DNA of 64,000 bases, taken from positions 7,712,001 through 7,776,000 of the forward strand of contig OY759599.1 in the NCBI GenBank assembly GCA_963662465.1, in the 5' to 3' direction. Positions 10,771 to 32,784 of this stretch are shown piece after piece. The DNA is from Desulfatiglandales bacterium. Its GTDB lineage: Bacteria; Desulfobacterota; DSM-4660; Desulfatiglandales; Desulfatiglandaceae. The notes beneath the pieces were generated by a model. That model was not told the DNA's origin, searched no databases, and saw only the letters and a list, made by a program, of their open reading frames with translations. Numbering within the stretch: the stretch's first letter is position 1; each line of letters starts with the position of its first letter. The position numbers were made by a program, and so were the translations under genes.

Positions 10771-10841
10771 GCCGTAAGTGCTTGTTATTGTTGGTGCGCC
10801 CAGCAGGATTCGAACCTGCGACCTACGGATTCGTAGTCCGT
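10771..10841. repeat. att site: displaced tRNA-Arg 3' fragment plus IHF-like flank
   Basis: gccgtaagtgcttgttattgttggtgcgccc...tcgtagtccgt matches 34658-34728 except position 10780; ends at the anticodon stem. Confidence 0.95.
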
Positions 10842-10964
10842 TTTAGGGATGATTTCCAGGGAAACCATAGGACGCTAAAAGATACATTTTCTGATTGACA
10901 TTTCAAAACCTTATCTATAAAATACCTTCCTAGAACGTCCTTCAAAATCCCTTAGTTTAAGCTT

Positions 10965-11009: not shown

Positions 11010-12275
11010 GTGAGAAAGAAGATTGAATGGATAAAAACTCGGTATGTAGGAGTAAGATGTTTTAGGCATTCCGAACGAAAACATGGGGTGCAATTCGATA
11101 AGTCTTTTCATGTTCGTTTCAATGGGGATGGTAAATTGTGGCAATCATCCCTTGGATGGTCCAGCGAGGGCATGACAGCCGAGAAAGCATCTATGAAGCT
11201 GTCAGAGTATAAGCAAAATTTCAAAGCCGGTAAACGTCCATGGACGATAACCATGGAAAGGGAAGATTCTGAACGGAAAGCCCAAGCAAAAGTTGAAGCC
11301 AAAGCCACATTGGAAAAAGAGTCCATGACCTTTGGAGAATATTTTGAGAAAATTTATTACCCCATTGCCAAGACTTCAAAGAAACAAAGGAGCTATGAAC
11401 AAGAGCTGTCACATTTCAATTTGTGGTTGAACCCTGCTATTGGAAATATGCGGTTGAGAGACATAAGGCCTATGCACTTGGAACGGGTAAAACGAAATCT
11501 TTTGAATGCTCCGGTCATATCCAGGGGGAAGAAACCAAAAAAAAGCTCGGTAAAGAAGCAAGCTAGATCTCCAAGGATGATTCAATATGTTTTTGCCACA
11601 GGGCGGCAATGTTGGAATTATGCGCGGCGGGATGGGCATGTGGCCGGCGAATGGCCAGGGAAGGAGGTTAAGATCCCAAAGGTTGAAAACCAGAGGATGC
11701 GTTTCTTGACGGATGCGGAGGGTGATCAGTTGTTGGCCGGGTTGAAAGAACGGAGTCAGCAATTATATGATATATGTTTGTTGTCCTTGGATAGCGGGCT
11801 GCGGGCTAATGAAATTTTCTCCCTTACATGGAACCGGGTTGATATTGATCAGAAGTCTGTCAAAGCTTTTGATTCCAAAGGGCGTGATCGGGTGGTTTAT
11901 TTGACGGACAGGGCAGCAGATATGCTTCAGGCTTTACCAGAACGTCAAGGGCTTGTGTTCAAGAGCCGTACGGGGGAACAGATCAAAGAAATATCAAATG
12001 CTTTCAACAGGGAGGTTGACAGCTTGGGGTGGAACGAAGGGGTCCATAGCAGAAAAGATAAACTTGTTTTCCATTCCCTGCGGCATTCGTACGCTTCCAG
12101 GCTTGTGGCCAGGGGTGTGGATCTGTATGTGGTGGGGCAGTTGATGGGGCACAGCGATCTTACAATGACAAAACGGTATAGCCATCTAAGGCCGGATACG
12201 TTACAGGCTGCGGTGGGATTGCTTGATGAACGAAAACAACAGGCGGATGTGATCCCATTGGCAGTAAAGAGTTGA
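11010..12275 (+). CDS. int: Tyrosine recombinase / phage integrase
   Basis: SGLRANE (R), FHSLRHSYAS (HxxR), LMGHSDLTMTKRY (H, Y); next to att. Confidence 0.95.
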   Translation: MRKKIEWIKTRYVGVRCFRHSERKHGVQFDKSFHVRFNGDGKLWQSSLGWSSEGMTAEKASMKLSEYKQNFKAGKRPWTITMEREDSERKAQAKVEAKATLEKESMTFGEYFEKIYYPIAKTSKKQRSYEQELSHFNLWLNPAIGNMRLRDIRPMHLERVKRNLLNAPVISRGKKPKKSSVKKQARSPRMIQYVFATGRQCWNYARRDGHVAGEWPGKEVKIPKVENQRMRFLTDAEGDQLLAGLKERSQQLYDICLLSLDSGLRANEIFSLTWNRVDIDQKSVKAFDSKGRDRVVYLTDRAADMLQALPERQGLVFKSRTGEQIKEISNAFNREVDSLGWNEGVHSRKDKLVFHSLRHSYASRLVARGVDLYVVGQLMGHSDLTMTKRYSHLRPDTLQAAVGLLDERKQQADVIPLAVKS

Positions 12276-13269: not shown

Positions 13270-14097
13270 GTGCCAGAAATGAAAAGGCCCTTTCCAGGGG
13301 CAAGCTGGAATGGGCCATCGAGGTTAAAAATGAATTCAATTAACAACAATTTAAAGCCTGATCTTGATCAAGTCAAGACTTATTCCCTATATGATCGGGA
13401 AGTCTGGAACTTGTTTCTAAAATCTGGTGAAGTTGTCGAAATGCGTATTCTGGGGGCCTTCGGTAAGCACAGGGCATGGGCCGGTTTTGCCAAGGGTACG
13501 GTTTCGGGATACTTTGACAATCACACTGATTTCTGTAAATGCCTAAAAGTGGCGGATACTGCTGAATGTGATGGTGTTTACTTCACACTTCATGTGATTG
13601 ATCCACGGTTGATAGGCAGAGCATTAAACAGGCTGAAAGCTGCGGATAAAACCACAGCAGACAACAACGTCATAATTTACCGGTGGTTGCCGGTTGATCT
13701 TGACGCCAACAGGCCCTCCGGCATTTCATCCAGTGACAGTGAGCTTAAACACGCTATGCTGATGCGGGAAGAGGTGGCGGCATGGGTTGTGTCCAATATG
13801 GGGTTATCATCCCCTGTCAAGGGCATGAGTGGCAACGGTGGCCATCTTCTTTTTCCTTTGCCTGATATTCCAGCCAACAAAGATTCAGAAGCATTCATCC
13901 AAAAAACCTTACAGGGGCTTCATAAACGTTTCAGTGATGATCAGGTGAGCATTGATACATCGGTGTTTAATCCTTCACGGATCTGGAAAGCTTATGGCAG
14001 TACAGCCAGGAAGGGTGATCAGGTTCCGGCGAATCAATACCGAGAGTCACGCCCTCACAGAATGGCGTTCATTGATGATCTGGGGGAGGTGTTTTAA
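13270..14097 (+). CDS. Archaeo-eukaryotic primase (AEP/primase-polymerase) domain protein
   Basis: AEP motifs WLPVDLD (DxD), SGNGGHLLF (SGxGxH), IDTSVFNPSRIWKAYG; start uncertain (13270 or 13330). Confidence 0.75.
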   Translation: MPEMKRPFPGASWNGPSRLKMNSINNNLKPDLDQVKTYSLYDREVWNLFLKSGEVVEMRILGAFGKHRAWAGFAKGTVSGYFDNHTDFCKCLKVADTAECDGVYFTLHVIDPRLIGRALNRLKAADKTTADNNVIIYRWLPVDLDANRPSGISSSDSELKHAMLMREEVAAWVVSNMGLSSPVKGMSGNGGHLLFPLPDIPANKDSEAFIQKTLQGLHKRFSDDQVSIDTSVFNPSRIWKAYGSTARKGDQVPANQYRESRPHRMAFIDDLGEVF

Positions 14098-14936
14098 TGG
14101 TGACTGCGGAAGATTTTATGAATAAAGCGGATGAACTGTTTGGAAAAAGTGATCCCAAGAAACCCGGTGGCGGGCAGTCGGGTGATAGGCGGATGGATCT
14201 GGGGTTGTACTTAGATTTTTTTAAGATCGGGTACAAGATAAAAACTAAGGGAACCCGGACAATTTATGCCCTTAACGAATGCCCGTTTGATTCAAGCCAT
14301 GTCAACAATGATGCGGCTTTCTTCCAGGATGAAAATGGAAAACTTGGATTCAAGTGTTTCCATGATTCTTGTCAGGGAAAGGGATGGAAGGAAGCGAAAG
14401 CGAAAATAAGCGGGGATGTGTCCCTGGGGGCTTTCATGGTTGGTGGCGATGGTGATGGAGAACAAAAGCTGGAATGGCCGGAACCGAAACCCATCAAAGC
14501 GGAATTGAAGCCGGTTGAAGCGATGCGGGAAGGGATGATCCCTGCTCCTTTCCTGCCCATGATAAGGGATGTATGTCACAGGATGTCAATTCCTTTGGAT
14601 TTTGTGGCTATTCCCATTGTGATTGTTGCCGGATCTGTTATCGGGACCGGATGCAGAGTGAAACCAAAGCGCAAGGATGATTGGGCGATTGTTCCAAACT
14701 TATGGGGAGGAATAATGGGTCCGCCATCCAGGTTGAAAAGTCCGGCATTGGAAGAGATTGTGAAAAAGCAGTTGGGCAGGCTTGAATCTGAAGAAATCGA
14801 GAAACACAAGACGGTCAAGGCTTCATGGTTGCAGGAAGTTGAAGGCCATAAGTTAAAGAAATCCGTTTTGGTATCGGAATATAAGAATGCGCTAAAAAAG
14901 GAGATTAAAAAATGCAAAACTCCAGTGAACTTTTAG
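14097..14936 (+). CDS. Zn-finger plus N-terminal half of DUF3987 (YfjI-like) helicase/ATPase
   Basis: CPFDSSH...CFHDSC Zn motif; WPEP; VPNLWGGIMGPPSRLKSP (Walker A-like). Confidence 0.8.
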   Translation: MVTAEDFMNKADELFGKSDPKKPGGGQSGDRRMDLGLYLDFFKIGYKIKTKGTRTIYALNECPFDSSHVNNDAAFFQDENGKLGFKCFHDSCQGKGWKEAKAKISGDVSLGAFMVGGDGDGEQKLEWPEPKPIKAELKPVEAMREGMIPAPFLPMIRDVCHRMSIPLDFVAIPIVIVAGSVIGTGCRVKPKRKDDWAIVPNLWGGIMGPPSRLKSPALEEIVKKQLGRLESEEIEKHKTVKASWLQEVEGHKLKKSVLVSEYKNALKKEIKKCKTPVNF

Positions 14937-15991
14937 AAGAAATCCAAGGGCTTTCGGATGCTACGGAACCCACAGAGAAACGATATAAAACCAATGATTG
15001 CACAACGGAAAAGATGGTTGAACTTCTCTCAGTTAATCCACGGGGGCTTTTATACTTTCGGGATGAGCTTGTGGGCCTATTCCGGCGGATGGATAAGCCT
15101 GGGTATGAACAGGACAGGGCCTTCCTCATTGAGTCATGGAGCGGGAATGGGGAGCATACGGATGATAGGATTAATCGGGGGACCATCAGGGCCAAGAACT
15201 TGTGCATCTCTATGTTGGGCAGTATCCAGCCGGGGAAGTTGGCGGGTTATTTGAGGCAAGCCATATCAGGTGATGACAACGACGGTTTTGTTCAAAGGCT
15301 TCAAATGATGGTTTACCCGGATCTGCCTAAGTTTGCTTACATAGATCGGTGGCCGGATGTGGAAGCAAAAAACAGGTGTTATGAAATTATCAGGGATTTG
15401 GCGAATTCAGATTTTGACGCATTCAGTATGGGTAATGATTTTGAACAGGATGAATCCGGGCCTTTCCTCAAATTTGACGATGAAGCGCAAGAGGTGTTTG
15501 AAGAGTGGTTCATGGACTTGCAATCAAAGATTGAGGCTGAAGATGAGCATCCCGCTCTCATTGAGCATTTGGGGAAGTACAGATCTCTTATGCCATCATT
15601 GGCGTTAATTTTCCATCTTATCGAGCTTGCGGATGGAACGGGCCAGGGCGCTATTTCCAAGAGGTGTGCAATACAGGCAGCGGCATGGTGTGACTACCTT
15701 GAATCACACGCCAGGCGGATATATGGCATGGTGCTTGATGGTGCTGCTATTGCGGCGGCTGTACTGTCACAAAAGATTGAAACCAAAAAGCTGGAATCCC
15801 CATTTAAGATCAGAACCATTCAGAGAAAGGGATGGGCGAGATTAACGGATAATTCCGAAATCCGGGAGGCTGTTTTGTATTTGGCCGATGCCGGATGGGT
15901 TCGGGAAAAGGAACCGGATCAAAAGAAATGGGGCAGACATGCGGAACCCGAATGGGAAATCAACCCTAATGTTTTTTCATATATTCACTAA
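14912..15991 (+). CDS. C-terminal half of DUF3987 (YfjI-like) helicase/ATPase
   Basis: RGLLYFRDEL (Walker B-like), DRINRG, GSIQP, DGFVQR; in -1 frame to upstream half, own RBS AAGGAG. Confidence 0.8.
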   Translation: MQNSSELLEEIQGLSDATEPTEKRYKTNDCTTEKMVELLSVNPRGLLYFRDELVGLFRRMDKPGYEQDRAFLIESWSGNGEHTDDRINRGTIRAKNLCISMLGSIQPGKLAGYLRQAISGDDNDGFVQRLQMMVYPDLPKFAYIDRWPDVEAKNRCYEIIRDLANSDFDAFSMGNDFEQDESGPFLKFDDEAQEVFEEWFMDLQSKIEAEDEHPALIEHLGKYRSLMPSLALIFHLIELADGTGQGAISKRCAIQAAAWCDYLESHARRIYGMVLDGAAIAAAVLSQKIETKKLESPFKIRTIQRKGWARLTDNSEIREAVLYLADAGWVREKEPDQKKWGRHAEPEWEINPNVFSYIH

Positions 15992-15996
15992 AAGGA

Positions 15997-16042
15997 GTAC
16001 CGACAAAACCGACAGAAGTAGTTTTGTCAGTTTTGTCAGTAC
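15997..16042. repeat. Iteron-like inverted/direct repeat; candidate replication origin
   Basis: gtaccgacaaaaccgaca ... tgtcagttttgtcagtac; further copies at 16176-16196 and 34407-34426. Confidence 0.65.
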
Positions 16043-16078
16043 CCAATTAAGGGAATAAGCGTTTTTTTAGGTGACCAC

Positions 16079-16420
16079 ATGAAATGGATTGATGAGCTTG
16101 AAAAGATAAAAAGTCCAGATCCCGAACCAGTAGGAACGGATGGCGCTAATGTTTTTTTGTGGGATGCTAAAAGGCGTACCGACAAAAGCGACAGAATGCC
16201 CACAACAGAAAAGCGAGAAAACGAAAGAACTGGTTATCCCATCCCAATGGATGAAACCGAATTTGCCATGGGCGAACGGCAAGCCATCATTGATGCGGAC
16301 GGTGGTCAGGATAAACTCTATTCCGGGCCGATGGATTTGAAAAGCAGGGACCTATCGGAGGATGAACTGCTGGCAGTCCACAGGGTAAGGGAATTTTTCC
16401 AAGGGACGTTGGTTCCCTAG
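16079..16420 (+). CDS. Hypothetical protein of replication module
   Basis: 113-aa ORF, RBS AGGTGA; ERQAII and LAVHRVREFFQG motifs. Confidence 0.6.
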   Translation: MKWIDELEKIKSPDPEPVGTDGANVFLWDAKRRTDKSDRMPTTEKRENERTGYPIPMDETEFAMGERQAIIDADGGQDKLYSGPMDLKSRDLSEDELLAVHRVREFFQGTLVP

Positions 16421-16561
16421 TCCGAAGATCAGACAGTAATTTAAAACCTTTAAACGGTCAATTGACATTTGCCTATGAGTTGGTGACACTATGACGTCAG
16501 CTCAGAAAGATGGTAAGAGAAATCAGCGTCAGGGCTACAAATCCCTTATTGTGGAGATGAT

Positions 16562-16687
16562 GTGGAGGCAAAAGAAAACAAGAGCAGGGACCTATCGGCT
16601 GTGGATCTTCTGGAAGTCCATGAAACGAAACGGGCCTTTGGCGGCGCGGTGATCCCATCAGAGCAGACAGAGGAAGGGCATGTTTGA
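16562..16687 (+). CDS. 41-aa paralogue of the C-terminus of 16079..16420
   Basis: GTG with GGAG RBS; KSRDLSAVDLLEVHETKRAFGGAVIP vs KSRDLSEDELLAVHRVREFFQGTLVP; shared DNA agcagggacctatcgg. Confidence 0.4.
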   Translation: MEAKENKSRDLSAVDLLEVHETKRAFGGAVIPSEQTEEGHV

Positions 16688-18640
16688 CATGAAACTTGCA
16701 AATCTTGACCTACATCCGTACCGGGGTCCGAAGCAAGTTTCCCGCCAAACATGCCACCAATTTTAATAACAACCCTGACCTTGAACGTTTTCCTCCCATC
16801 CCCGGGGCTGCAATCGGTATACCAAACAGCCGGCAAACCGATTGCAGCCCCTCATTCTCAGAAACCTCGAAACTCAGAGCCAAAGCCATTCGGAAGCGCA
16901 TCCCAAAGGCATCTACCGCAAACAGCCGCGGAAAATGCCTTTGGGGTACGCTGATCGTTTTAATAAAGGACCACTACATCGGAGCGCCCTCCGCAGAGAT
17001 CGCCAAGGCACATCCCTCGCAAAAAGAGCCGCAAGGGTCGCGCCATGCCGAACTCTGCTCCAGGCGAACCATTTTTATAACAGACCAGACCTCGACCGTC
17101 GGGGGGGGAAAGCCATGCCTTTCTGGGGTGAATCACAGTTCTACGACATCGGAAGAAGGGCCTGTCACACAGCTTGCAGGAGATATCATGTCGGGCAGCA
17201 GTGGCAAGCTGTCCGCCAGGCCCTTGCCAATTTGATAACAACCTTGTACTCGACGTTCTGGGACGGCTTCATAGGCATTGAGAATTTCGATAGCTGGTAA
17301 GCACTGCATCAGTAGGGTTTTTCGCAAGGCGCTTGCAGTTGGTCATGTCGGGCATAGTAGCAAGCCCCTCGCCAAAAACCCGTTAATCTAATCCACATAC
17401 CTTTGCAGCCATCTCCCAGGGATGCACCTCAAACTTTGGTTGCGACCTCAATGCTTTTACGACATCAGTTGGCTGTTGTCGGCACCCTTCCCCCCTCTCC
17501 CCACGCCCCTCTCCCCCCATCCCCTCCAGCCATTTGCTTAACCGTGCCCTGAAAAGAGGGACACTGGCAAATGGCTGGGATAAGGATGGGCCAAAGACGC
17601 GGCGCCGTTCCGGCTTGCAGGCCCACCTTCTTTTTAAGTGGGGAAAGGGGGGAAGGGTGCCAGTCTCGACAACTCAATCTAAGACCCTTACGGGAAATTC
17701 CGTCCGGAGGCCGGTAACCCGCCGGAGGCGTATCAGAAAAAACAGCACAATCCAATGGCGCTATGGCCCGGCACATCATCCGGCCAGGCACTTCCAAACA
17801 GCCGCAAGTGCCTCCCCTCCTTCAGCGCCAGGCCACAGCGCCCCCAAGTTTAACCCTGGTACTTTTCATGGCAAGCCTATCAGGTCCACAACCTTGGTAA
17901 GCAGGGCATCAGACCGCCCGGTGGCGGGCACATTAAACAAAGAACATACATCGGATCGGCCCGGTGGCCGTCTTAATTTAAAAGAGCATGCATCAGGCCG
18001 CCCGGTGGCGGTCACAATTTGATTCACATACCTTTGCAGCGACCTCTTTCCTCTTATCCTTCAGCATTGGAATCCCTTAACCTTGGGGCTCAAACGTCGC
18101 GCCAAAACAAGAGCGTGATATTCCTTCAACGTTCACAGCCAATGGCCCACCCTCAATCACGCACTCGTTTTGGCGCGGCGAGGTGTGTTTTCCCTTCGCT
18201 CGCGGTAAGCTTTTCCTTTGACTTGAAAGTCCTCGCGTCACGCGGGCAAAGGCAAAACACCCCATTCGGTTTTGATCACATACCTTTGCGGTCAGCCCTT
18301 TCCTCTCATGCACCAGCGCACGGCGGAATGTTCTTCGTTTATTTCAATCTCAACCAGCCGAGCGCTTCCGTTGAGGGACTTCAACCGCTTGGCTTGGTCA
18401 TTCCATAGGACTGCGGGTGGGCGCAAAGGGACGCGCTCACCCTTGCGCCAATTCCAATGGTTGCCATTCCATGGGTAGCTTGGTTGTAGGGCGCAGGGAA
18501 AAAGTGCGATTAATCTAACTCGCCCCCACCCCTTTACCCACACCCGGCTCCGCCCCCAGTGGGTTACTTGCCCTTACGGGCTCGTGCAATATGTAAAACC
18601 CCACTAACCCCCATCCTCCCTACACCCTCCTGGCCCCCGG
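16677..18640. repeat. Non-coding array of motif-framed stem-loops (function unknown)
   Basis: At least 12 inverted repeats read directly; recurring flanks CATC(A/G)G and AAT(T/C)T, loops CAAACAGCCG x3, TCATGTCGGGCA x2, CGGT x3, and CACATACCTTTGC x3. Confidence 0.8.
17907..18020. repeat. Three 42-bp tandem units, each with a CGGT-loop hairpin
   Basis: CATC at 17907, 17949, 17991; stems ccgcc/ggcgg, cggcc/ggccg, ccgcc/ggcgg. Confidence 0.85.
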
Positions 18641-19391
18641 ACCTCCAAACTTACGAGTAACTAAAGAGCGAACCTTTGGGTAATCGGGCAGAAAAACAAA
18701 GCGTAGAAAAGAAAAGAGAGAAAGCGGAAGAGAGGAAAAAGAAAACCCTGGTGCCACGTGCAATACATAATGAAAAAACCAGATCTTTGACACAAGCCCT
18801 TTCCCCTTGGAAACAATCACAAACATGCATATACGAGGACTATGGATTAATCTGCTAACTTTTTATTCATAGCTTGGCTTTTCATTGGACGCTGACGCTG
18901 CTGCTGGCCGCAATAATTGGTGACAGGGCGGAATATCATCAGAACCTTTTACGTTACAAACCCCAATATGCCATTCAAACCATTGATATCATGGGAGCAG
19001 AACATGGGATGCATGGTAACAACCTCTAACAAATCTATTGCTTATTTGTGACAAATTGTTTGAATCGCTTCGAAACATAGCCGGGGGTGCCCCTCGATCC
19101 ATCTTGACCATCCCCCGGCCGCTTGGGCTGGTGGGTAAGCAGCCGCAGTTTTTTACCGGGGGAATGGATGCTAAAACGTGATCCTTCTGAATTTCTGAAC
19201 ACCATAAAAAAGGGCTGGTGACATCGCGACAGGTAAGAGGGTTAACACATGTTAAAAGAGGGGATAATTCATGGAAAAAATCTCTGATGTGACATCATGC
19301 CCTGCCAAGGTGACAGGTTGCTATTTCCAAAAATCTGTTCTATAAAAGTGGTAATTTCCCTAATGATTTCGATTAAAAAGAGGACTGTATT

Positions 19392-19985
19392 ATGGGGGGG
19401 CATGGCTCTGGAAGGCCGTTATTCTCCGGGCGTAATGGCAGAGACACCACGGAAAGCCAGCACCGGGTTGATATACGATGGTTGAAACAACAAGGACGCC
19501 TTCGGCCTCATGCCTTTGGTTCGTTGTCCTGGTCAAGCGGGGGCAAAGAAACAGGCTCTATTGGTTATGCGATGGAAAAGGACCGGATGGTGCTGAAATA
19601 CCAGATAGGAGCCGATAAGGAACAGATTGAACAGACAGTTTGCTTTGACCGGACACCATGCCATTTTGGTGGATACCGACAATGGTTCCTTTGTCCCGGC
19701 TGCGGAAAGCGGGTGGCGCTTCTGTATGGGGCAGGGAAATACTTCCTTTGTCGGCATTGTTATGACCTGACGTATTCCTGCAAGCAGGAGCAGCCGGTTG
19801 ACCGCTACATGAGAAAGGCAAGGCGGATAAGATCTCGCCTAGGGGCAAGTGATAACCTGGGTGAACCGATATGGCAGAAGCCAAAGGGTATGCACTGGCG
19901 AACCTTTGAACGATTGAAGAACAAAGCGGATACAGCGAATGAGTGCTCATGGCGGATAATGGGCCGAAGGTTTGGGTTATGCTGA
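19392..19985 (+). CDS. Conserved hypothetical zinc-ribbon protein of mobile elements
   Basis: MGGHGSGR N-terminus, WFLCPGCGKRV-LY-FLCRHC, KPKGMHWRTFERL; RBS AGGA. Confidence 0.8.
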   Translation: MGGHGSGRPLFSGRNGRDTTESQHRVDIRWLKQQGRLRPHAFGSLSWSSGGKETGSIGYAMEKDRMVLKYQIGADKEQIEQTVCFDRTPCHFGGYRQWFLCPGCGKRVALLYGAGKYFLCRHCYDLTYSCKQEQPVDRYMRKARRIRSRLGASDNLGEPIWQKPKGMHWRTFERLKNKADTANECSWRIMGRRFGLC

Positions 19986-22778: not shown

Positions 22779-25520
22779 TTACCATCTGGTCAGCAGTTCT
22801 CGGATCGCCTCAGCTTGGTTAAGTACCTCGGAGGTATTGTCCCAGTCCGCATCCAACGATTCTACAGTCTCTTTCAGGGTGAAAGGATTTTGTTCCCGTT
22901 CGGCGATGATGGTGAGGATAGTATTCTCGTCCCATTCCTTATCATCCAGCATATCGGTGACCCACTGGTCCACAATGAAATCGGGAATAGTGCCGAAGAT
23001 ACTCGTGATCTCTTGAATGCGACCGGAGAGGGTCTGGAAGAGCCTCAGTTCTGCACCCTTGTCATAGCGCATGTTGTAGAAGGGGATCCGCTTTGCCAAG
23101 GTACCACGCTGAACGCGCCCTTTGCGCTGTTCCAGAAGAGTTGGGTTCCAAGGCAAATCGAGATTGATCAAACAGCCCAGTTTCTGCAGGTTAAGCCCGG
23201 TGCTGGCAGCATCGGTGCCAATCAGCAATTTCAGCCGCTCCTGCACCACTTTTTCCTTGAGCAAATCACGATTGACGCTCTGGATCTTTCCTCCCTCGAA
23301 GAGTTTGCTGGCACTGCTGTTGGTGTAGAGACCGATCGGCTCTTCAATGTGCTCCACCAGATACTCGGCAAGAGCATAGGCGGAATCATAGAACTGGCTG
23401 AAAATCAGCACCCCACGGTCGAGCCAGGTACGTCCCTCAAATTTCGATGCCAGAATCTCCCGTACCCGTTCAAACTTTGGATCATTTTCTCGCTCCAGAT
23501 GGCGCGTTAGATGTTCTTCGAGCCTCATCAGAAATTCCTTTTCATCGTCAGTCAGTGGGTAAATGGATTGGGCATCGTCATCCGGATCATCCTCGATTTC
23601 CAGCGCCCGGCCGACGAGCATCTTGCGGGTTGTCTTGAGGCCGGCTTCCAGCGAACTTCCCACCCGGCGCTGCAAGAGGGTCTTGATGAAGCCTCCCGCC
23701 TTGATCCGATGGTGAAGTGCTTTAGCAAAATCCTCGGCCAGCTCGAAGGCCTGCGCCATGCTGTGCGAGCAGAGAATCGGCTGGCCATCGCCAAAGACAA
23801 CCATCTCGATCTTCACCAGTTTCCCTTCTTCTTCCAGGCGGTCACGGGAGCGCTTAACGACCCACTGTGTAAAAGGGTTGACCTCCCGCAGGGTTATGAA
23901 CTCCAGTTCATCAGCGCGAGATGAATCGAGCTTGTCCAAGTCGGCATTGGTCGCCAGGTCGTCGGCGACGCTAAGCCCGAGATCGTTACGAATCCAGTCA
24001 AACACCTCGGTGCGTCCATCTAGTCGGGTTGGCAGGGGGTTGCGCCAGTATTGCCATTTTTCATAAAGCTGGGTCAACTCTTCGCGGCCGGCGACCAGAT
24101 CAAAAATCTCCGGGCCGTCGTGTTTTCTCCACAGACTGTTTTCGCCGCCCAATATCTGAGGGTTATTGACAGAGAGGATGTGCAACAGGTCCCACAACTC
24201 CATGGGATGTAATTGCACGGGAGTTGCTGTTGCCAGCAGCATGGTCATCGTACGGCTGGCTAATTGCTCGGCAAACATGTATAGGCGTTTCTTCTCCGGT
24301 GATTTATAAACATTGTTGGGGGAGAGGTTCCCCCGCCTGATTTTATGGGCTTCGTCCCAGATGACACAGGAGTAACGTCTTTGCAGCAGCTGTTCAATAA
24401 GGATACTGTTTCGCTCTGATATGGGGGCGCTGGTGATGACCGAGGTCGAGACAATACCGATCTTGCGGGGGCAGTTTGTCAGCCGGTCAGGAAGCGCCGG
24501 ATGGAACTCGTCCCGCTCGGTCAGCCAACCGCCGTTCTCCCAGCGAGCTGAAGGGACGGCAAGTTTCAGCAACAACTCTTCCTGCCATTGAGCCAAGAGT
24601 GGTTTGGGGGCAAGGATCAGGATAGGCAGTGAATCAAGGGTGCCGATCAATTTAGCCAGAGCACCGAGCTGCAGGGTTTTTCCTAACCCTACCCCATCAC
24701 AGAGAAGAAAGCGAGCGCCGCGCAGGGGATCATTTTTATGTTTGAGATGTTCGTTGAAAGCAAGATTGATGAAATACTTCTGGTGGTCCCAGAAACCAAA
24801 AAGTTCGGTGGCTGTGGGTACTTCGGCCAGCAGCGGCTCTGGTTTGGGTTTTTCCAGCCAGGGGCCGATGTGCTCCAGAACGGTCCGTTGTGATAGTCTT
24901 CCGATCTGCTTTACGATAAACTCGGAAAGAGGGAAGCCTTTCTCCCACAGGGCATCAAACTCCTGCTGAACCCAGGTGACACTTTCTGGGCTGTCATCTT
25001 CCCAAACCAGCTCATAATTCCTGGTCCAGGCCCGGGAAGAGTCGTTGGCGCTGCCAATAAAGGATGTTGCCCCCTGCGGCCCTTCAATTACCCCGCCTTT
25101 GCCATGCACAAACCCGAATTCGGAATCCGGAACGATACGAATCTCGAAGAGCCGACCATCTTGGCTGGAAGCTTTCAGCAGTTGGTACAGAATCTTGAGT
25201 CTGGTCTGTGCCTCGTGGCCATGCACATCCACCAGGTGGGGGAATTGACCGGCATTCCAGGCAAGCCGCAACAGACTCTCCTCCAATTCCTTACGTCGGG
25301 AGCCGGTTGCCATGCGTACTGTCTTCACGTCCTCGGCGCTTACCTCGGCATTGCAGACAATCCGTATCTGGGGAATATCGGCCAACTCAGTCGCCGCCAG
25401 TTCCAGCAGACTACTCTGAAAATAACCGGCGATACGATCATAGCGGCGGGCATCGGCCAGACGCTTCTGCAGAAACTCGTTGTAGAGGCTTCCACGGCGG
25501 GAGCTAAAACGCTGTAGCAT
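22779..25520 (-). CDS. PLD-nuclease/SNF2 helicase fusion (restriction-like system)
   Basis: HGKGG...GSAND (HKD-type), DGVGLGKT, DEAH, ATATP, TGLNLQ, QRKGRVQR; start reassigned to ATG 25520. Confidence 0.9.
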   Translation of the reverse strand: MLQRFSSRRGSLYNEFLQKRLADARRYDRIAGYFQSSLLELAATELADIPQIRIVCNAEVSAEDVKTVRMATGSRRKELEESLLRLAWNAGQFPHLVDVHGHEAQTRLKILYQLLKASSQDGRLFEIRIVPDSEFGFVHGKGGVIEGPQGATSFIGSANDSSRAWTRNYELVWEDDSPESVTWVQQEFDALWEKGFPLSEFIVKQIGRLSQRTVLEHIGPWLEKPKPEPLLAEVPTATELFGFWDHQKYFINLAFNEHLKHKNDPLRGARFLLCDGVGLGKTLQLGALAKLIGTLDSLPILILAPKPLLAQWQEELLLKLAVPSARWENGGWLTERDEFHPALPDRLTNCPRKIGIVSTSVITSAPISERNSILIEQLLQRRYSCVIWDEAHKIRRGNLSPNNVYKSPEKKRLYMFAEQLASRTMTMLLATATPVQLHPMELWDLLHILSVNNPQILGGENSLWRKHDGPEIFDLVAGREELTQLYEKWQYWRNPLPTRLDGRTEVFDWIRNDLGLSVADDLATNADLDKLDSSRADELEFITLREVNPFTQWVVKRSRDRLEEEGKLVKIEMVVFGDGQPILCSHSMAQAFELAEDFAKALHHRIKAGGFIKTLLQRRVGSSLEAGLKTTRKMLVGRALEIEDDPDDDAQSIYPLTDDEKEFLMRLEEHLTRHLERENDPKFERVREILASKFEGRTWLDRGVLIFSQFYDSAYALAEYLVEHIEEPIGLYTNSSASKLFEGGKIQSVNRDLLKEKVVQERLKLLIGTDAASTGLNLQKLGCLINLDLPWNPTLLEQRKGRVQRGTLAKRIPFYNMRYDKGAELRLFQTLSGRIQEITSIFGTIPDFIVDQWVTDMLDDKEWDENTILTIIAEREQNPFTLKETVESLDADWDNTSEVLNQAEAIRELLTRW

Positions 25521-25524
25521 CTTG

Positions 25525-28518
25525 TCATGCTCTCCAGTTTTCGACGCTGATGGCAAGCGCTGCCAGGGGGTTCTGATAGTCCTGCCACTGGTTATTGCCG
25601 GCAGTGGCCTCGCGCAGATAGGCCAGGATTACTGCCAGGCGGCTGGTGCGGATATTCCAGAAGTCTGTGCTGTCCACCAGGTGTTTGACCGCCCGGTCCA
25701 TGTCCGCCCCTTCCGCAAGGAGTTTCAGCGAGTGGTAGAGCTGTCGGGTGGGGGAGTATTTCCACAGCCCCCGTTCGGCAGGGGCAATGTCGGCAAAGCG
25801 TCCAGCATCGGGGCGCGGCAGTTCTTCGGGCAGCATAGTCCGGCTGTCGTTGGCCCGCACCGGTCCCATCAGGCTTTCGTAGTCGGCAAGGCCATAGGCG
25901 CGGCCCAGGTCCTGAAATGCGCTGATTTTGAACATGCCCTGCTGTTCGATCTCAAGGCCCTTGAGCAGAAACTTTTCCTCTGCCGCAAACTCCCGCCAGA
26001 ACTGGTAGGAGTCGCCGGCAGCCTGTTTTTTAATGGCTCGCTCCATGGCTGGCGGCACAAGGAAATCGGTGGCGGTTCGCTTGGCGTTTTCCATGAGGAC
26101 ACGCAGGGCGGAACGGCCGCGCTCCCGGTTGGGGGTACACAGTTCTGCTTCCAGATCAACCCCGTCAATGGTACCATAGCCGGTCACCACTTCGGCGGCG
26201 GTGGCCTGGGCAGCCAGCAGATAATCAGTGTCTGTATAGCCGCAGCGGGTGAGGCCACCTTCCACCTGGCTCTGGCGCATGCGGGTAATGACCTCTTTAA
26301 CCCGTTTGTTCACCTGGGGGGTGATGAAATCAACAAAACCCATCTTGTCGCCGGTCCGTTTGCGCAGTACCATGTTATAGGTGGCCTGGACATAGTTGCC
26401 GGAGCGGATGCCAGCCCCGGGCGTCTCGGTGGCCACACTCCAGACCTGTTTCACCTGAAGGCCGGCAGCCCACATGATGAGGGCCAGGTCTTCCCATACA
26501 TCGGTGGACTTGTGGGTGAACATCAGCACCTGCATACCGTTGTCCGGCATTTTCATGGCGAGGCGGCGATAGCAGTCGGCCATAGCCATACGGAATGGGG
26601 CATCGTTTCCCTTCACAGCTCGGGTTCGCATGGAATCGGTGTACCAGTCCGGAAAGGCTGCTTTCAGGTGTGGGATATACCAGGCCAGGAAGAACTCGGA
26701 TAGTTCCTCATAGTTGACCGCATCTGCGTAAGGCGGGTCAGTGATCCAAAGGTGGCAGGTTGAATCGATTTCACGGGCATCACACACTTCAACCTTGTTT
26801 ACCTGATTTGTTGTAATTGCCTGGTGTCCCGGTTGCGCCTGAAAAGCCAAATGTTTCCAGGATCGGCAGGCATAATTCAACATAGTATTGAGAGCTTGGT
26901 TGTAGTACACAGAAACCGTCCCGCCAATGCCTCCTCCATCACCTGATTTCCATCGAGTTAAACGGGCATTTGCTTCGATAACTCGGCCAAAAGCTAGAGT
27001 TAAAGCAGCCCGGACCTCAGTCTCGCATCCTACCAACCGTCGTGAATACTCCCCTGCCATCAACAACTGCCTCGGATTAAAAAGCTGGTGCCAGTGGGTC
27101 CAGCCCCTTGTACGGATTGGTTCATCCGTCTTTTCTCCCGGTTCGATCCGCCAGCCGGGGATCCAGCCGTCCAACTGCCATTCGGCAAAGATATCCTCCA
27201 ACATCTCTACAACCCTGGATTCGACCTCCAAGTCATGGATGTGTGGTTCTCGGTAAACCAGATCGCCCCGGCGAACACGCCCACGCTCGTCTTCATAATC
27301 GGGCTTTCGCCAGCGGATGCAGTAGAGCCGTTCCTGCAGGAGGTCATCAGGCCGCGGGATAAAGTCGCTTTTTTCCCAGCGTCGCAACCCCCCGGCGTTT
27401 TCAATAAGTTGATTGTAGGGAATGGTGCGCTGAATGTTCTGGCGGCAGCCTTCCTGTTTGAAAATCTCCCAGAGGGCCGGGGGACAGACCACATCCCGCC
27501 CCTGCTTGGTCCCTTCTTTGACATGCTTCCAGCCCTCTCCGCCATGAACCACCCGGAATCCGAATTTTTTTTCCGCCTTGATGGGAACCAACTCCACCCA
27601 GGTTTTCGTTTTCGGGGCAATTTCCCAGCTCGGGCAGATGGGGACGCGCCAATTGTCCCACTCCGGCACCACCATCTCCAAACAATAAAGATAAGTCTCG
27701 GCCCTCCATCCTTCCTCACTCTGCTCCAATTCATGTTCACAGAGCCAAGCGTCCATCTCATTGTACAGCCTCTGCTGCTCGGTATGGACCAGAGCCCGAA
27801 GTTCATCGCTGCCGCCGACAATATTGAGCGCCCCCCAGGTAAGAAGACAGGCAACAGGATTAAGATCCGATGCATAGACATCGCAGCCCAGTTCAGCCGC
27901 CTCGAAGGGGATGGAGCCAAGACCGGAAAAAGCATCCCCTAACTTGAGCCGCCCGCCGAACTGGCGTCCGGAAAGCTCCTGAACCAGCTCCGGCAGGGAT
28001 GTGGCCGTGGTGCGAAGATAGATGTTGATTTCCTTCCACGATTCCGGCGCCGGTCCGTCGATCTCTTCCACCCGGTAGCAATATTTACGCTGGGTGGTAT
28101 GGTCCATGGTGTAGAAGACCCGTTTCTCCAAGGCTTCTTTCATCTGTTGGTCAAGGCCACGCCGCTTCCAGCGGCTATCTTCGTCAAACAGGGCTCCGAG
28201 TTCTTCGCCGGTGGCCATGGATTCACAGAGGTCGGCCGGCAAAGGGGCCTTCTTGCGCCGCCACATACCTGCGTTATCAAGACACATACACTTGAGGAAT
28301 ATTTCCAGATCATCCGGCCAACGTTCTGGATCATCGGAGGCTGGAAAGACTGCGGCCAGAATAATAGAGCGGGTTAGGACCAATGGTTTGGAGCCCCACC
28401 ACTTACCAAGACTATTCAGCGGTTTGCCGACATAGGGGAGCCGTTCAATATAGCTTTCTAGCGACAGGGGACCGATGGGAAACTGGACTTCCAGGAGAGA
28501 GCGTTGGGCCATAATCAC
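25525..28518 (-). CDS. DUF1156 amino (adenine-type) DNA methyltransferase
   Basis: KWWGSKPL, DAFSGLGSIPFEA (motif I), TDPPY (motif IV). Confidence 0.9.
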   Translation of the reverse strand: MIMAQRSLLEVQFPIGPLSLESYIERLPYVGKPLNSLGKWWGSKPLVLTRSIILAAVFPASDDPERWPDDLEIFLKCMCLDNAGMWRRKKAPLPADLCESMATGEELGALFDEDSRWKRRGLDQQMKEALEKRVFYTMDHTTQRKYCYRVEEIDGPAPESWKEINIYLRTTATSLPELVQELSGRQFGGRLKLGDAFSGLGSIPFEAAELGCDVYASDLNPVACLLTWGALNIVGGSDELRALVHTEQQRLYNEMDAWLCEHELEQSEEGWRAETYLYCLEMVVPEWDNWRVPICPSWEIAPKTKTWVELVPIKAEKKFGFRVVHGGEGWKHVKEGTKQGRDVVCPPALWEIFKQEGCRQNIQRTIPYNQLIENAGGLRRWEKSDFIPRPDDLLQERLYCIRWRKPDYEDERGRVRRGDLVYREPHIHDLEVESRVVEMLEDIFAEWQLDGWIPGWRIEPGEKTDEPIRTRGWTHWHQLFNPRQLLMAGEYSRRLVGCETEVRAALTLAFGRVIEANARLTRWKSGDGGGIGGTVSVYYNQALNTMLNYACRSWKHLAFQAQPGHQAITTNQVNKVEVCDAREIDSTCHLWITDPPYADAVNYEELSEFFLAWYIPHLKAAFPDWYTDSMRTRAVKGNDAPFRMAMADCYRRLAMKMPDNGMQVLMFTHKSTDVWEDLALIMWAAGLQVKQVWSVATETPGAGIRSGNYVQATYNMVLRKRTGDKMGFVDFITPQVNKRVKEVITRMRQSQVEGGLTRCGYTDTDYLLAAQATAAEVVTGYGTIDGVDLEAELCTPNRERGRSALRVLMENAKRTATDFLVPPAMERAIKKQAAGDSYQFWREFAAEEKFLLKGLEIEQQGMFKISAFQDLGRAYGLADYESLMGPVRANDSRTMLPEELPRPDAGRFADIAPAERGLWKYSPTRQLYHSLKLLAEGADMDRAVKHLVDSTDFWNIRTSRLAVILAYLREATAGNNQWQDYQNPLAALAISVENWRA

Positions 28519-28538
28519 ACACCTTTTTCAGAAGAGCT

Positions 28539-29282
28539 TCAGCTGGATAGGGCCGTCTTCCGAGTTGTTCTTTTTGCTTTTTTTACCTGTGCCTTTTCGG
28601 GTAGGACCGGTGTTTTCTGCTGTGCCTTTTTGGTAGTCGCCTGTTTTTTTGTCCGGGGTGCTGGTGGCGCTTTCACAGTGTCCGCTGACTTCGACAATGG
28701 TTGGTTTTTCTTGGGTTTCTTCCCGGCCACTCTTTTTTGTGTCTTCGGCAAGCCATTTGCAGGCCTTTTTTTTTTCAGCGTAATCATATCGGTTGTTCTG
28801 CTGTCAGGTGTTTCGGACAGGGCATGGAACAGGGCCAACCGCCAGCCCGCGCCTTGTCTCTGGCCTGGGGCCACGCCCTTGGCGTAAAGCCACCAGCGTT
28901 CCTCACGGGCCAGTTCGCGCCAGCCATGCAGGATGGCCTCGGCCTGACCATCGCCACCTACCTCGCTCAAGGCCCAGAAGAGTACGGCAAGTTCCCGACC
29001 GATGAGTGGGCTCAGGCGGTTAGTGCCGCGTTTCAGAACAGGGGCCTTTTTCGGCCGTTCGGTTTCGCCCATCCCTTCAGCAAGTTCCCGGACAACCCGG
29101 TCACTTAATGCATTCCACAAGTCTGTCGGGATTAAAGCAAGCTCGGTCCGCCGTGGCCCGCGCTCGGTCTGGATGATCTCCGTGAGAAGGCACTGGCCGG
29201 CCTTTCCGGTATCCCAGACCAGTTCATAGAAGTCACCAGTGGGATCGACAACGCCAAAATCATGGACAACGGGGGTGCTCAT
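28539..29282 (-). CDS. DUF3780 protein with Lys-rich C-terminal tail
   Basis: GRELAVLFWA...W...EERWWLY...GWRLALFHAL; ATGA overlap with upstream stop. Confidence 0.85.
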   Translation of the reverse strand: MSTPVVHDFGVVDPTGDFYELVWDTGKAGQCLLTEIIQTERGPRRTELALIPTDLWNALSDRVVRELAEGMGETERPKKAPVLKRGTNRLSPLIGRELAVLFWALSEVGGDGQAEAILHGWRELAREERWWLYAKGVAPGQRQGAGWRLALFHALSETPDSRTTDMITLKKKRPANGLPKTQKRVAGKKPKKNQPLSKSADTVKAPPAPRTKKQATTKKAQQKTPVLPEKAQVKKAKRTTRKTALSS

Positions 29283-32753: not shown

Positions 32754-32784
32754 AATGTTTCTATCCGTAATCAAAAGATACTTT

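What the first reader, a model, noticed from the sequence alone, without database searches (positions are those of the whole stretch)
16677..18640. ~2 kb array of variable hairpins framed by fixed motifs: candidate ssDNA priming battery or structured-RNA array
Seen: no credible gene, but consecutive stem-loops at 16677-16755, 16804-16851 (perfect 15-bp stem), 16895-16952, 16985-17066, 17156-17225, 17315-17381, ~17475-17673 (multibranch), 17786-17813, three units at 17907/17949/17991, 18095-18180, 18185-18260 and 18317-18508. Stems differ in sequence and length. Most start a few nt after CATC(A/G)G (16977, 17147, 17307, 17463, 17907, 17949, 17991; variants cattcgg 16887, caccag 18311) and are followed by an AAT(T/C)T-like motif. 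Conserved frame plus variable insert is neither CRISPR, REP nor attC. Knowledge (recalled): DnaG primes at 5'-CTG-3' templates, and the phage G4 origin primer begins pppAGUAGGG and runs through a hairpin; the unit at 17307 reads catc-AGTAGGG-hairpin. RSF1010 RepB' primase also recognises hairpin ssi sites. Inference: the minus strand (hairpin then CTG/CCG) offers many priming sites for complementary-strand synthesis or acts as a decoy for host or helper proteins. The alternative is a processed RNA array, with a candidate TTGACA promoter at 16462. G.T pairs occur on both strands, slightly more on minus by my hand count, so strand is unresolved.
Basis: partly seen in the sequence, partly recalled or inferred. 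Interest (0 to 1): 0.88.

Follow-up and report, generated by a model that had tools for sequence, protein, structure and literature searches.

The report
Tandem framed hairpin array beside origin
A 2-kb gene-free stretch of an integrated mobile element holds about fourteen different, strongly folding hairpin units framed by short fixed motifs; the design recurs in related elements, fits no known RNA or DNA family, and its function is unknown.

Summary
Window 16677-18510 holds about 14 stem-loop units at the stated coordinates. They fold far better than shuffled sequence (z -7.4 minus strand, -5.8 plus strand).

CATCRG occurs 8 times on the plus strand and never on the minus (shuffles: mean 1.4, none of 1000 reach 8). 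Seven of the 8 lie 0-6 nt before a hairpin.

The same design recurs in two other mobile-element loci of this genome, in one other species of the genus, and in two metagenome contigs that hold the same sequence. There the stems differ but stay paired, while loops and frames are kept.

The long hairpins fold best on the minus strand: 67 G.U pairs against 5 A.C mismatches in 21 hairpins. One roughly 200-nt unit, M (18311-18510), is a separate covarying family that folds best on the plus strand.

Rfam gives nothing. The array is missing from 14 other DUF3987 elements and from a near-identical copy in this genome. It also sits beside an unrelated Toprim primase.

My best reading (0.45) is a new, lineage-restricted array of small structured RNAs at the border between origin and cargo genes. 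RNA versus ssDNA was not settled, and the function is unknown.

The parts
15991..16200 (.). Context: iteron and inverted-repeat origin region just after the DUF3987 helicase gene
   Evidence: D18, I3, I17; 87% copy at G000:6128522. One search shows a similar inverted repeat after the DUF3987 gene in L010.
16491..16687 (+). Context: duplicated C-terminal fragment of the small ORF (16079-16420). Its reading frame ends inside the 5' arm of hairpin A, and the first CATCRG (16656) lies in it.
   Evidence: (D4). In L070 the intact 142-aa ORF runs into hairpin A.
16677..16755 (-). Hairpin unit A
   Evidence: I6.: -39.7 minus vs -32.1 plus. The L070 copy differs at 5 of 79 positions.
16804..16851 (-). 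Hairpin unit B (class 1: apical loop shared with C, D and X)
   Evidence: (I11). In the L070 copy the loop is kept, and 4 of 20 stem pairs changed on both sides yet still pair.
16895..16952 (-). Hairpin unit C (class 1)
   Evidence: (I5)
16985..17066 (-). Hairpin unit D (class 1 variant)
   Evidence: -52.3 minus vs -37.2 plus; 6 G.U pairs on minus, 0 on plus.
17156..17225 (-). Hairpin unit E (class 2; apical part shared with F)
   Evidence: (I8)
17315..17381 (-). Hairpin unit F (class 2)
   Evidence: (I9). The L007 copy keeps the outer stem and has a different, still paired inner stem.
17475..17673 (-). Long branched hairpin G
   Evidence: (I2). 11 of 74 pairs changed on both sides and kept, compared with L007.
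17676..17737 (.). Linker module N, ending in TATCAG. Its first 20 nt are identical in all three arrays of the genome.
17757..17842 (-).
   Evidence: I1.: -59.1 minus vs -41.6 plus.
17907..18013 (.). Three short GC hairpin units H, I and J, each right after CATCRG. This is the most conserved unit type; one copy occurs in genome G001.
   Evidence: (D8, D15)
18014..18094 (+). Conserved spacer motif of about 40 nt (…ACCTTTGCAGCGACCTC…). Other copies are at 17385-17425 and 18264-18310, and before M units elsewhere.
   Evidence: (D1, D2)
18095..18180 (-). Hairpin K
   Evidence: (I4)
18182..18263 (-). Hairpin L
   Evidence: (I10)
18311..18510 (+). Unit M: a multi-stem element with a covarying closing helix. 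There are six copies in this genome and three in tandem in L070.

Best explanation
The stretch is a modular array of small structured non-coding RNAs carried by integrative primase-helicase elements. It sits at the border between the replication origin and the cargo genes.

Shown:
- About 13 hairpin units are selected to fold on the minus strand.
- Unit M is a separate, roughly 200-nt structured family that folds on the plus strand.
- Units are framed by short, strand-specific motifs.
- Stems change quickly but stay paired, while loops and frames are kept.
- Whole units are gained and lost between copies.

Inferred:
- The hairpins are made as minus-strand RNA, either as one precursor or from several starts.
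- This RNA is cut in the A/U-rich single-stranded frame. On the minus strand that frame reads A-R-A-U-U, 2-6 nt before each stem, which resembles the sites preferred by RNase E/Y-type enzymes (recalled).
- The product is a set of stable hairpin RNAs that display conserved loops and a conserved GAUG tail.
- The likeliest job is binding or titrating a protein or RNA partner. It would then serve as a decoy or as a regulator of the element's replication or maintenance.

The partner and the function are not known.
For: Folding beats shuffles.

Strand-specific selection:
- In 21 long hairpins from five loci, the minus strand has 560 Watson-Crick and 67 G.U pairs. It has only 5 A.C mismatches, which would be G.U on the plus strand.
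- 17 of the 21 fold better on the minus strand.
- In the window, G.U pairs summed over ten units number 31 on minus and 8 on plus.

The bias flips between neighbouring units. Eight of 9 M units fold better on plus. In L070 they sit between minus-type hairpins. This argues for selection on each unit and against a regional mutation bias.

G.U pairs make up about 11% of pairs (67 of 627). I recall that share as typical of structured RNA.

In all six class-1 copies compared (B, C, X in the window; B', C' in L070; X' in L007) the apical loop motif is the same. In B, C, B' and C' the minus-strand fold closes it with a G.U pair; on the plus strand that position is an A.C mismatch.

In the paralogues of unit J, the minus-strand tetraloop reads UCCG in L007 and UUCG in L008. 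I recall both as members of the stable UNCG RNA loop family.

Compensated stem change with kept loops and frames:
- B against its L070 copy: 4 of 20 pairs changed on both sides and kept.
- G against its L007 copy: 11 of 74.
- 17 pairs in all (alignments).

Hairpins A and C are about 94-97% identical to their L070 copies (5 of 79 and 4 of 58 positions differ). The last part of the neighbouring gene aligns much less well.

M has a closing helix paired in 93% of cells. Three of its pairs changed on both sides, and 1 of 500 shuffles reaches the covariation score.

A metatranscriptome run (X1) holds contigs over parts of the array, each at least 90% alike: 16424-16755, 17259-17507 and 17733-18091. 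These are 6 of the 8 contig pieces listed (10 were laid). One contig runs on after unit A into a stretch that matches the L070 version at 17 of its first 18 letters.

The frames are strand-specific and placed next to the stems.
Against: - No transcript is shown for this organism. The X1 evidence consists of assembled contigs from an RNA library, with no strand or end information, and DNA carry-over is not excluded.
- No convincing promoter or terminator was found. The scan lists 3 promoter-like sites against 2.5 expected, and 5 terminator-like sites against 6.2 expected. One of the three is a minus-strand site that ends a few nt before hairpin X.
- The minus strand is also favoured with DNA energy parameters (sum over units A-L: -279.5 vs -235.4 kcal/mol). 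Folding therefore cannot separate RNA from single-stranded DNA.
- On the plus strand the short units H, I and J, and several long units, look like weak terminators: a hairpin followed some bases later by a T run.
- The array always lies next to origin iterons, which is just as well explained by a DNA role.
- No partner protein gene is shared by all arrays.
- The RNase-site reading of the frame rests on a recalled consensus.
Confidence: 0.45

Rival explanations
1. Single-stranded-DNA hairpin signals. When the element's origin is unwound, or the element is copied or transferred as a single strand, the minus-strand hairpins fold. The short motif just 3' of each hairpin (CTG or CCG within C-Y-G-A-T-G) then serves as a start site for a primase. 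Many different hairpins would give many entry points.
For: - The geometry fits what I recall of the phage G4 origin and the RSF1010 ssi sites: a hairpin, then a start a few bases 3' of it.
- The minus strand folds better with DNA parameters too.
- The array adjoins iterons in the window, in L070 and in L008, where the iterons lie inside the array.
- Primase-helicase genes are adjacent in 3 of the 4 larger loci.
- A sequence like unit I sits inside the small ORF next to the iterons of the array-less copy L009.
- Units on both strands (hairpins on minus, M on plus) recall the paired ssiA/ssiB of RSF1010 (recalled).
Against: - 0 of 14 other DUF3987 loci show an array.
- L009, with the same helicase gene at 96-99% translated (tblastx) identity, has none.
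- The same units serve elements with unrelated primase types, and also occur in a locus where I found no primase gene.
- The G4-like start is not conserved.
- Three of the 8 frames read CCG rather than CTG.
- There are 67 G.T-type pairs, and the minus-strand loops are of an RNA-type family.
- M is a branched 200-nt fold with covariation.
- On chromosome replication the window's plus strand looks like the leading strand, since cumulative GC skew rises. The minus strand would then not be the exposed template.
Confidence: 0.2
2. Cassette-like recombination array. Each hairpin is a folded recombination or transposition site, in the manner of integron attC sites or the ends of single-strand transposons. 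The fixed frames would be the crossover points.
For: - Whole units are present or absent between copies.
- The 260-nt difference between the window and L008 is bounded by the frame letters ATCAG on both sides (joint 17731 to 17992, 49).
- An extra unit lies between A and B in L070.
- The hairpins are alike in form but not in sequence, face one way, and fold strand-specifically, as attC sites do.
- Tyrosine recombinases are present at all three loci.
- Earlier notes on other windows of this genome report integrons.
Against: - There is no pair of complementary core boxes at the hairpin base. Only 1 of the 8 or so TAGATT-type frames I read by eye reads like the integron core consensus (recalled).
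- The borders of the extra L070 unit do not fall at CATC.
- There are no genes between the units.
- The units are not dispersed in the genome. Of 169 occurrences of the class-1 loop word, hairpins were seen only in the array loci in the part of the output I could see, which was cut.
- Five letters of shared sequence at one deletion can be plain microhomology.
Confidence: 0.1
3. Plus-strand regulatory punctuation. The hairpins act in plus-strand RNA as terminators, attenuators or stabilisers that insulate the replication operon from the cargo genes. This would be like empty stem-loop-plus-promoter cassettes of T4-type phages.
For: - All upstream genes are on the plus strand, and the small ORF runs into hairpin A.
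- Many units are followed 3-7 nt later by a T run.
- One short unit is scored terminator-like.
- M is on the plus strand.
- The array sits at the border between core and cargo in the window and in L008.
Against: - The stems are systematically weaker on the plus strand: 5 A.C mismatches against 67 G.U pairs.
- Terminator-like sites are not enriched: 5 against 6.2 expected.
- Thirteen in a row with conserved loops is more than insulation needs.
Confidence: 0.1
4. No cellular function. The stretch is a pile-up of self-maintaining palindromes, such as decayed miniature inverted-repeat elements kept paired by template switching during replication.
For: - The genome is rich in mobile elements.
- Arms of inverted repeats can correct each other without selection (recalled).
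- The distribution is narrow.
Against: - Loops and frames are conserved more strongly than the stems, and more than the neighbouring gene end.
- The wobble bias is one-sided and flips between neighbouring units.
- No dispersed copies were found.
- The order of units is kept in a diverged environmental relative.
Confidence: 0.07

Closest known systems
Single-strand initiation (ssi) signals: the phage G4 complementary-strand origin and RSF1010 ssiA/ssiB (recalled, not fetched)
   Same: A hairpin on one DNA strand is followed a few bases 3' by a short start motif. It lies next to an origin and primase genes.
   Different: - Here there are about 13 unlike hairpins in tandem.
- The array is absent from 14 of 14 related primase-helicase elements examined.
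- It is shared by elements with unrelated primases.
- Wobble content and loops are RNA-like.
- No priming has been tested.
Integron attC arrays
   Same: Tandem, same-direction, imperfect hairpins that are conserved in form but not in sequence. They fold strand-specifically, and units are gained and lost.
   Different: - No complementary core boxes at the base of the hairpins.
- No integron integrase beside the array.
- Spacing is about 40-160 nt, with no cassette genes.
TIGR-Tas stem-loop arrays (PMC12045711; passages read)
   Same: Arrays on mobile elements of hairpin units with variable palindromic stems and very short conserved motifs. The paper reports that they are transcribed and cut at the linkers.
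   Different: - TIGR units carry two 9-nt spacers in loops and lie next to a Nop-domain Tas protein.
- Here the stems are nearly continuous duplexes.
- No Nop-like hit was found in the Pfam or PHROGs scans of the neighbours.
Protein-sponge RNAs of the CsrB/RsmZ type (recalled)
   Same: Many hairpins with unlike stems display a repeated short motif in loops and linkers.
   Different: - The motif here is different (GAUG-type tails, and two loop classes).
- The stems are 15-30 bp long.
- No partner protein is known.
Promoter-early stem-loop (PeSL) cassettes of T4-type phages (named in earlier scan notes; papers not read)
   Same: A fixed short sequence combined with a variable stem-loop, repeated at module borders in a plastic genome region.
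   Different: PeSL units flank small genes and act on the gene strand. Here there are no genes, and the stems favour the opposite strand.

Membership tests
Any Rfam 15 family | Match at or above the family's gathering score | tested here: not met
   - Whole window: only two tRNA hits.
- 15900-19500 at E up to 5: 8 hits, all far below gathering; 7 are animal microRNA-precursor models and 1 is a lncRNA region.
- L070, L006 and L002: 18 weak hits, none reaching gathering.
Integron attC | Complementary core boxes that pair at the hairpin base, and an integron integrase or cassette genes alongside | tested here: not met
   The frames CATC and AATTT/AATCT are not complementary to each other and lie outside the stems. 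There are no genes between units. The core consensus used for comparison is recalled.
CRISPR | Near-identical direct repeats separated by unique spacers | tested here: not met
   The direct-repeat families are short and few. The only near-identical repeats are the three short units.
REP/BIME or MITE-type dispersed palindromes | Many similar copies dispersed over the genome | tested here: not met
   - BLAST of 15991-19400 against the 8.16-Mb genome finds only the two other arrays and the origin copy.
- Of 169 loop-word occurrences, hairpins were seen only in array loci in the part of the output I could see; the output was cut.
G4-type or RSF1010-type ssi | Priming of complementary-strand synthesis on the folded single strand | not testable with these tools
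   The geometry is compatible. Linkage to primase genes fails in 14 of 14 relatives.
G4-type ssi | Conserved primer start sequence at the foot of the hairpin | tested here: not met
AGTAGGG follows 1 of the 8 CATCRG sites (17307). The L007 copy reads differently.
TIGR-Tas | Adjacent Nop-domain Tas protein, and dual spacers flanked by box C/D-like motifs | tested here: not met
   No Nop-type Pfam or PHROGs hit among the neighbours. The 197-aa ORF after the array has no named relatives. A remote fold match was not tested.
Retron-like template arrays | A reverse transcriptase, and an msr-like recognition structure for each unit | tested here: inconclusive
   No reverse-transcriptase domain among the window or L007/L008 ORFs scanned. 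A reverse transcriptase acting from elsewhere in the genome was not searched for.
Intrinsic terminators | GC-rich stem followed directly by a T run, on the transcribed strand | tested here: not met
   5 terminator-like sites against 6.2 expected in shuffles. Where T runs are present they start 3-7 nt after the stems.
Type III toxin-antitoxin RNA arrays | Near-identical tandem repeats next to a toxin gene | tested here: not met
   The units are unlike one another. There is no adjacent toxin family hit.

The most novel reading that the evidence does not exclude
The array is a bank of exchangeable hairpin cassettes. Units are added and lost at the fixed frames, and their fast-changing but always paired stems carry specificity. 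They might act as double-stranded guide or decoy RNAs against competing elements or phages. Alternatively, they might be a set of single-strand entry sites, each tuned to a different helper's replication or transfer enzyme. Either way this would be a new kind of programmable nucleic-acid module on mobile elements.
Probability: 0.1. Interest if true: 0.9.

Novelty: categorically new. Interest (0 to 1): 0.72.

Why it matters
If the units are RNAs, this is a new family of structured non-coding RNAs, plus a second one (M), arranged in a way not described for bacterial mobile elements. It would point to an unknown layer of control or conflict at the origin of integrative primase-helicase islands that carry defence genes.

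If the units act as single-stranded DNA, it would be the first tandem battery of folded priming or recombination signals.

Either way the locus offers dozens of natural compensatory stem variants for a direct test.

The narrow distribution limits its general reach. It was found in one genus and in two metagenome contigs that hold the same sequence.

Tried and rejected
- Known RNA families: none.
- Protein coding: rejected. Similarity to the paralogue is alike in all six frames.
- Genome-wide repeat family: rejected.
- N-module pattern in 209 genomes of the order: only chance or coding matches, with backward controls alike.
- DNA search in 60 relatives and then in the 209 genomes of the order: only one 31-nt match, in G001.
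- Metagenome scan with a two-block pattern taken from M. My script found 123 matches, and a filter for the downstream M motifs kept 3. One of these (L112) is GC-rich coding DNA; L070 and L114 are real and hold the same sequence.
- Viral contigs: 3 spurious hits, then 0 hits, then 52 hits of which none has the hairpin context.
- Stems as copies of phage or plasmid sequence: only chance matches at E = 7. Those collections hold few phages of this group, so this says little.
- Sigma-70 promoters for each unit: not supported. By eye, a TAGATT-like hexamer lies 2-5 nt before many minus-strand stems, but no -35 partner was found.
- Sigma-54 promoter, hammerhead core, box C/D: considered by eye from recalled consensus motifs and dropped because key positions or spacings do not fit.
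- DnaA-box-like words: 4 on plus and 0 on minus in 15950-18900, against about 1.1 expected. This is too weak to use.
- Runs X2 and X3 appear to be DNA of the organism. X4 is of unknown kind and patchy. None gives strand or ends, so they were not used as expression evidence.
- The ORF after the array (19392-19985): no family.
- Literature: two full-text searches found no description of such an array.
Full report
**Setting**

The window is G000:C1:7712001-7776000 of an 8.16-Mb single-contig genome. The best outside relative of the local helicase gene is in Desulfamplus magnetovallimortis at 45% identity, so I take the organism to be a member of the Desulfobacterales.

The finding lies in an island of about 24 kb. 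A tRNA-like fragment at 10795-10875 marks one end and tRNA-Arg(acg) at 34679-34755 marks the other. In order, the island holds:
- a tyrosine integrase (11010-12275);
- unassigned ORFs;
- a DUF3987 helicase split into two ORFs (14097-14936 and 14912-15991);
- an iteron and inverted-repeat region (about 15991-16200);
- a 113-aa ORF (16079-16420) and a duplicated fragment of its end;
- the gene-free 16.68-18.65 kb stretch;
- four small plus-strand ORFs;
- a minus-strand defence-type operon: PLD-helicase, DUF1156 methyltransferase, DUF3780 and DUF499.

The 741 nt from 16660 to 17400 fold at -320 kcal/mol on the minus strand (z -7.4) and at -268 kcal/mol on the plus strand (z -5.8). No shuffle out of 20 does as well on either strand.

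CATCRG occurs 8 times on the plus strand and never on the minus strand between 16650 and 18650. Dinucleotide shuffles give 1.44 on average, and 0 of 1000 reach 8. Seven of the 8 copies end 0-6 nt before a stem.

The A/T-rich 3' frame (TTTTAATAA, AATCTAA or AATTTGAT) occurs 7 times on plus and 0 on minus, against 0.13 expected from the genome rate.

The frames are common but not universal. With a strict pattern, 17 of 33 hairpins in five loci have the 5' frame and 13 of 33 have the 3' frame. These are lower bounds, because some of my borders were off by a few bases.

Reading the sequences by eye, the last one or two letters of CATCRG often pair with letters just before the 3' frame (GG with CC, AG with CT). 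The truly single-stranded frame is then CATC on one side and AAT(T/C)T on the other.

**Unit types**

- B, C, D and X share an apical loop word (families D5 and D10).
- E and F share another.
- H, I and J are short GC hairpins that differ by a compensated stem change (D8 and D15).
- 18311-18510 is not a simple hairpin. It is a multi-stem unit that I call M.
- A spacer motif of about 40 nt (…ACCTTTGCAGCGACCTC…) recurs after F, after J and before M (D1 and D2).

**Relatives**

The same genome has two more arrays.

- **L007** (C1:1576220-1577655) is 83% identical to window 17294-18453. It lies between chromosomal genes and a 129-aa HTH gene, insertion sequences and an integrase.
- **L008** (around C1:162.4-164.3 kb) lies in another island. 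That island has an integrase, a Toprim/zinc-ribbon primase-helicase, a small-terminase-like gene, the same HTH gene, and a related defence operon. Eight GGGCAACCT-type iterons lie inside the array by eye; one search finds six exact copies there.
- **L009** is a near-identical copy of the DUF3987 module (96-99% translated identity). It lies next to tRNA-Arg(ccg) and has no array.

Outside this genome:
- 0 of 14 loci that encode DUF3987 relatives show an array after their iterons.
- DNA and pattern searches of 209 genomes of the order found only one small hit. This is a 1.9-kb contig of another species of the genus (G001). It holds an H-like unit, a class-1-like hairpin after CATCAG, and a J-like unit followed by AATCTAA, next to what looks by eye like a membrane-transporter gene.
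- One metagenome contig is a true relative: L070, 10.1 kb, with L114 holding the same sequence. It carries an intact 699-aa DUF3987 gene, different iterons, the small ORF, copies of A, B, C and D in the same order, then three tandem M units, an H-like unit and an E/F-like unit. The frames are the same.
- A covariance model of the M 5' domain finds six copies in this genome, including a lone one at C1:592426-592521. It finds none in 104 other genomes of the family.

The design is therefore conserved but confined to a narrow lineage. It is an accessory of several kinds of element and not part of the DUF3987 replication module.

**Evidence of selection**

Between the window and L070, hairpin A differs at 5 of 79 positions and C at 4 of 58. 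The end of the neighbouring gene aligns much less well.

B keeps its loop while its stem changed: 4 of 20 pairs changed on both sides and kept, 2 changed on one side and kept, 2 broken. In G against its L007 copy, 11 of 74 pairs changed on both sides and kept.

Over nine orthologous pairs the counts are 212 unchanged, 15 one-sided and kept, 17 two-sided and kept, 37 broken, and 9 with gaps. Most of the broken ones are in F and G, where an inner stem was replaced by a different stem that still pairs in its own fold. They therefore reflect my mapping more than any loss of structure.

Whole units differ between copies:
- L008 joins the end of module N directly to unit J, and the 260-nt difference is bounded by ATCAG on both sides.
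- L070 has an extra short unit between A and B.

**Which strand**

Folded on the minus strand, 21 long hairpins from five loci have 560 Watson-Crick pairs, 67 G.U pairs and 27 other single mismatches. Only 5 are A.C mismatches, the kind that would be G.U on the plus strand. Seventeen of the 21 are more stable on the minus strand.

In the window, G.U pairs summed over units A-G, X, K and L number 31 on minus and 8 on plus. The L070 copies of B, C, D and E show the same bias, but its copy of A does not.

Unit M is the reverse: 8 of 9 copies fold better on the plus strand. Its closing helix is paired in 93% of cells, 3 of its pairs changed on both sides, and 1 of 500 shuffles reaches the covariation score.

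In L070 the M units sit between minus-type hairpins. The bias therefore belongs to each unit and not to the region. This argues against a replication or transcription mutation bias and for selection on the folded single strand.

DNA energy parameters give the same direction (sum over A-L: -279.5 minus against -235.4 plus). Folding alone cannot say whether the strand is RNA or DNA.

**RNA or DNA**

For RNA:
- About 11% of pairs are G.U.
- The class-1 apical loop is closed by a G.U pair in the minus-strand folds of B, C and their L070 copies; on the plus strand that position is an A.C mismatch.
- In the J copies of L007 and L008 the minus-strand tetraloops belong to the stable UNCG family (family recalled).
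- M has a branched, covarying architecture.
- Contigs of a metatranscriptome run cover parts of a relative's array: 6 of the 8 pieces listed (10 were laid). One runs on after unit A into a stretch that matches the L070 version at 17 of its first 18 letters.

For DNA:
- The array always adjoins origin iterons.
- The hairpin-then-CYG geometry matches what I recall of G4-type and RSF1010-type priming signals.
- A unit-I-like sequence lies inside the small ORF next to the iterons of the array-less copy L009.

Against any simple transcript model, promoter-like and terminator-like sites are not enriched.

I put RNA ahead, but this is not settled.

**How it may work**

On the minus strand each unit reads as follows: an A/U-rich single-stranded stretch (A-R-A-U-U, often within TAGATT or TAAATT), then 2-6 nt, the hairpin, 2-6 nt, and C-Y-G-A-U-G. 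Some class-2 loops contain the same GAUG-type word.

I infer a minus-strand precursor, or several short transcripts, cut in the A/U-rich frame. This would give stable hairpin RNAs that display conserved loops and tails to a partner. M would be an independent plus-strand RNA.

A decoy or regulatory role at the origin-cargo border is my best guess. No partner gene is shared by all arrays. No reverse transcriptase or Nop-type protein was found nearby.

**Comparison with known systems**

- No Rfam family matches.
- It is not CRISPR, a dispersed palindrome family, a terminator set or a type III antitoxin array.
- It lacks the paired core boxes and the genes of integron cassettes.
- TIGR-Tas stem-loop arrays are the nearest published array of hairpins with very short fixed motifs. 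They need a Tas protein and loop spacers (PMC12045711, passages read).
- Priming signals remain untested.
- Two full-text searches found no description of such an array. Supplements were not consulted.
- Earlier scan notes on other genomes describe retron-like template arrays and hairpin-punctuated gene arrays. They prompted the reverse-transcriptase check but are different objects.

**Verdict**

This is a real, selected, strand-specific and modular non-coding array with no known family. Its function and its chemistry (RNA or ssDNA) are open. Interest 0.72.

Noticed in passing
window 18311-18510; L007 10234-10432 and 11508-11690; L008 8482-8700 and 9708-9890; G000:C1:592426-592521: Unit M is a separate structured family of about 200 nt. 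It has a covarying closing helix, a variable hairpin, and two copies of a conserved ATTCCATGG-type word. There are six copies in this genome, all in the same chromosomal direction. One of them is a lone partial copy far from any array, between an Lcl_C-domain gene and unassigned ORFs.
   Followed up: partly
window 14097-14936 and 14912-15991: The DUF3987 primase-helicase is split into two overlapping ORFs here. It is further broken in the paralogue L009. In metagenome contig L070 it is a single 699-aa gene.
   Followed up: partly
window 16340-16380 and 16580-16620: The end of the 113-aa ORF is duplicated (80% identity over 41 nt). The second copy resembles the L070 version and carries the reading frame that runs into hairpin A. 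This suggests a past recombination between two element types.
   Followed up: partly
L009 9856-9880: The array-less paralogous element has, inside its 159-aa ORF next to the iterons, a sequence very like unit I: CATCGG followed by a short GC palindrome.
   Followed up: no
window 22779-32428 (minus strand): The cargo is a four-gene defence-type operon: PLD-helicase, DUF1156 methyltransferase, DUF3780 and DUF499, all with strong PADLOC matches. A related set lies in the L008 island. A cpYpsA SLOG gene lies at 32448-32813.
   Followed up: partly
L008 9160-9340: Eight iterons of GGGCAACCT type by eye (six exact), about 22-42 bp apart, lie inside that array. The recurrent spacer motif of all arrays contains the related word GCRACCT.
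   Followed up: partly
window 18510-18745: Right after the array comes a run that is very C-rich on the plus strand (many G tracts on the minus strand). An A/G-rich tract of about 70 nt follows.
   Followed up: no
window 19047-19248: A further non-coding piece is also held by the metatranscriptome run, with the highest contig depth of those laid. It contains a GC hairpin, then a stem-loop with a class-1-like loop word, followed by six T. On the plus strand this looks like a terminator.
   Followed up: no
window 17389, 18020, 18534, 18863: Four words within one mismatch of the recalled DnaA-box consensus, all on the plus strand. About 1.1 would be expected.
   Followed up: partly
window 10795-10875 and 34679-34755: A weak tRNA-like match (34.8 bits, not called by ARAGORN) and the full tRNA-Arg(acg) bracket the island. 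They probably mark its two attachment sites.
   Followed up: no
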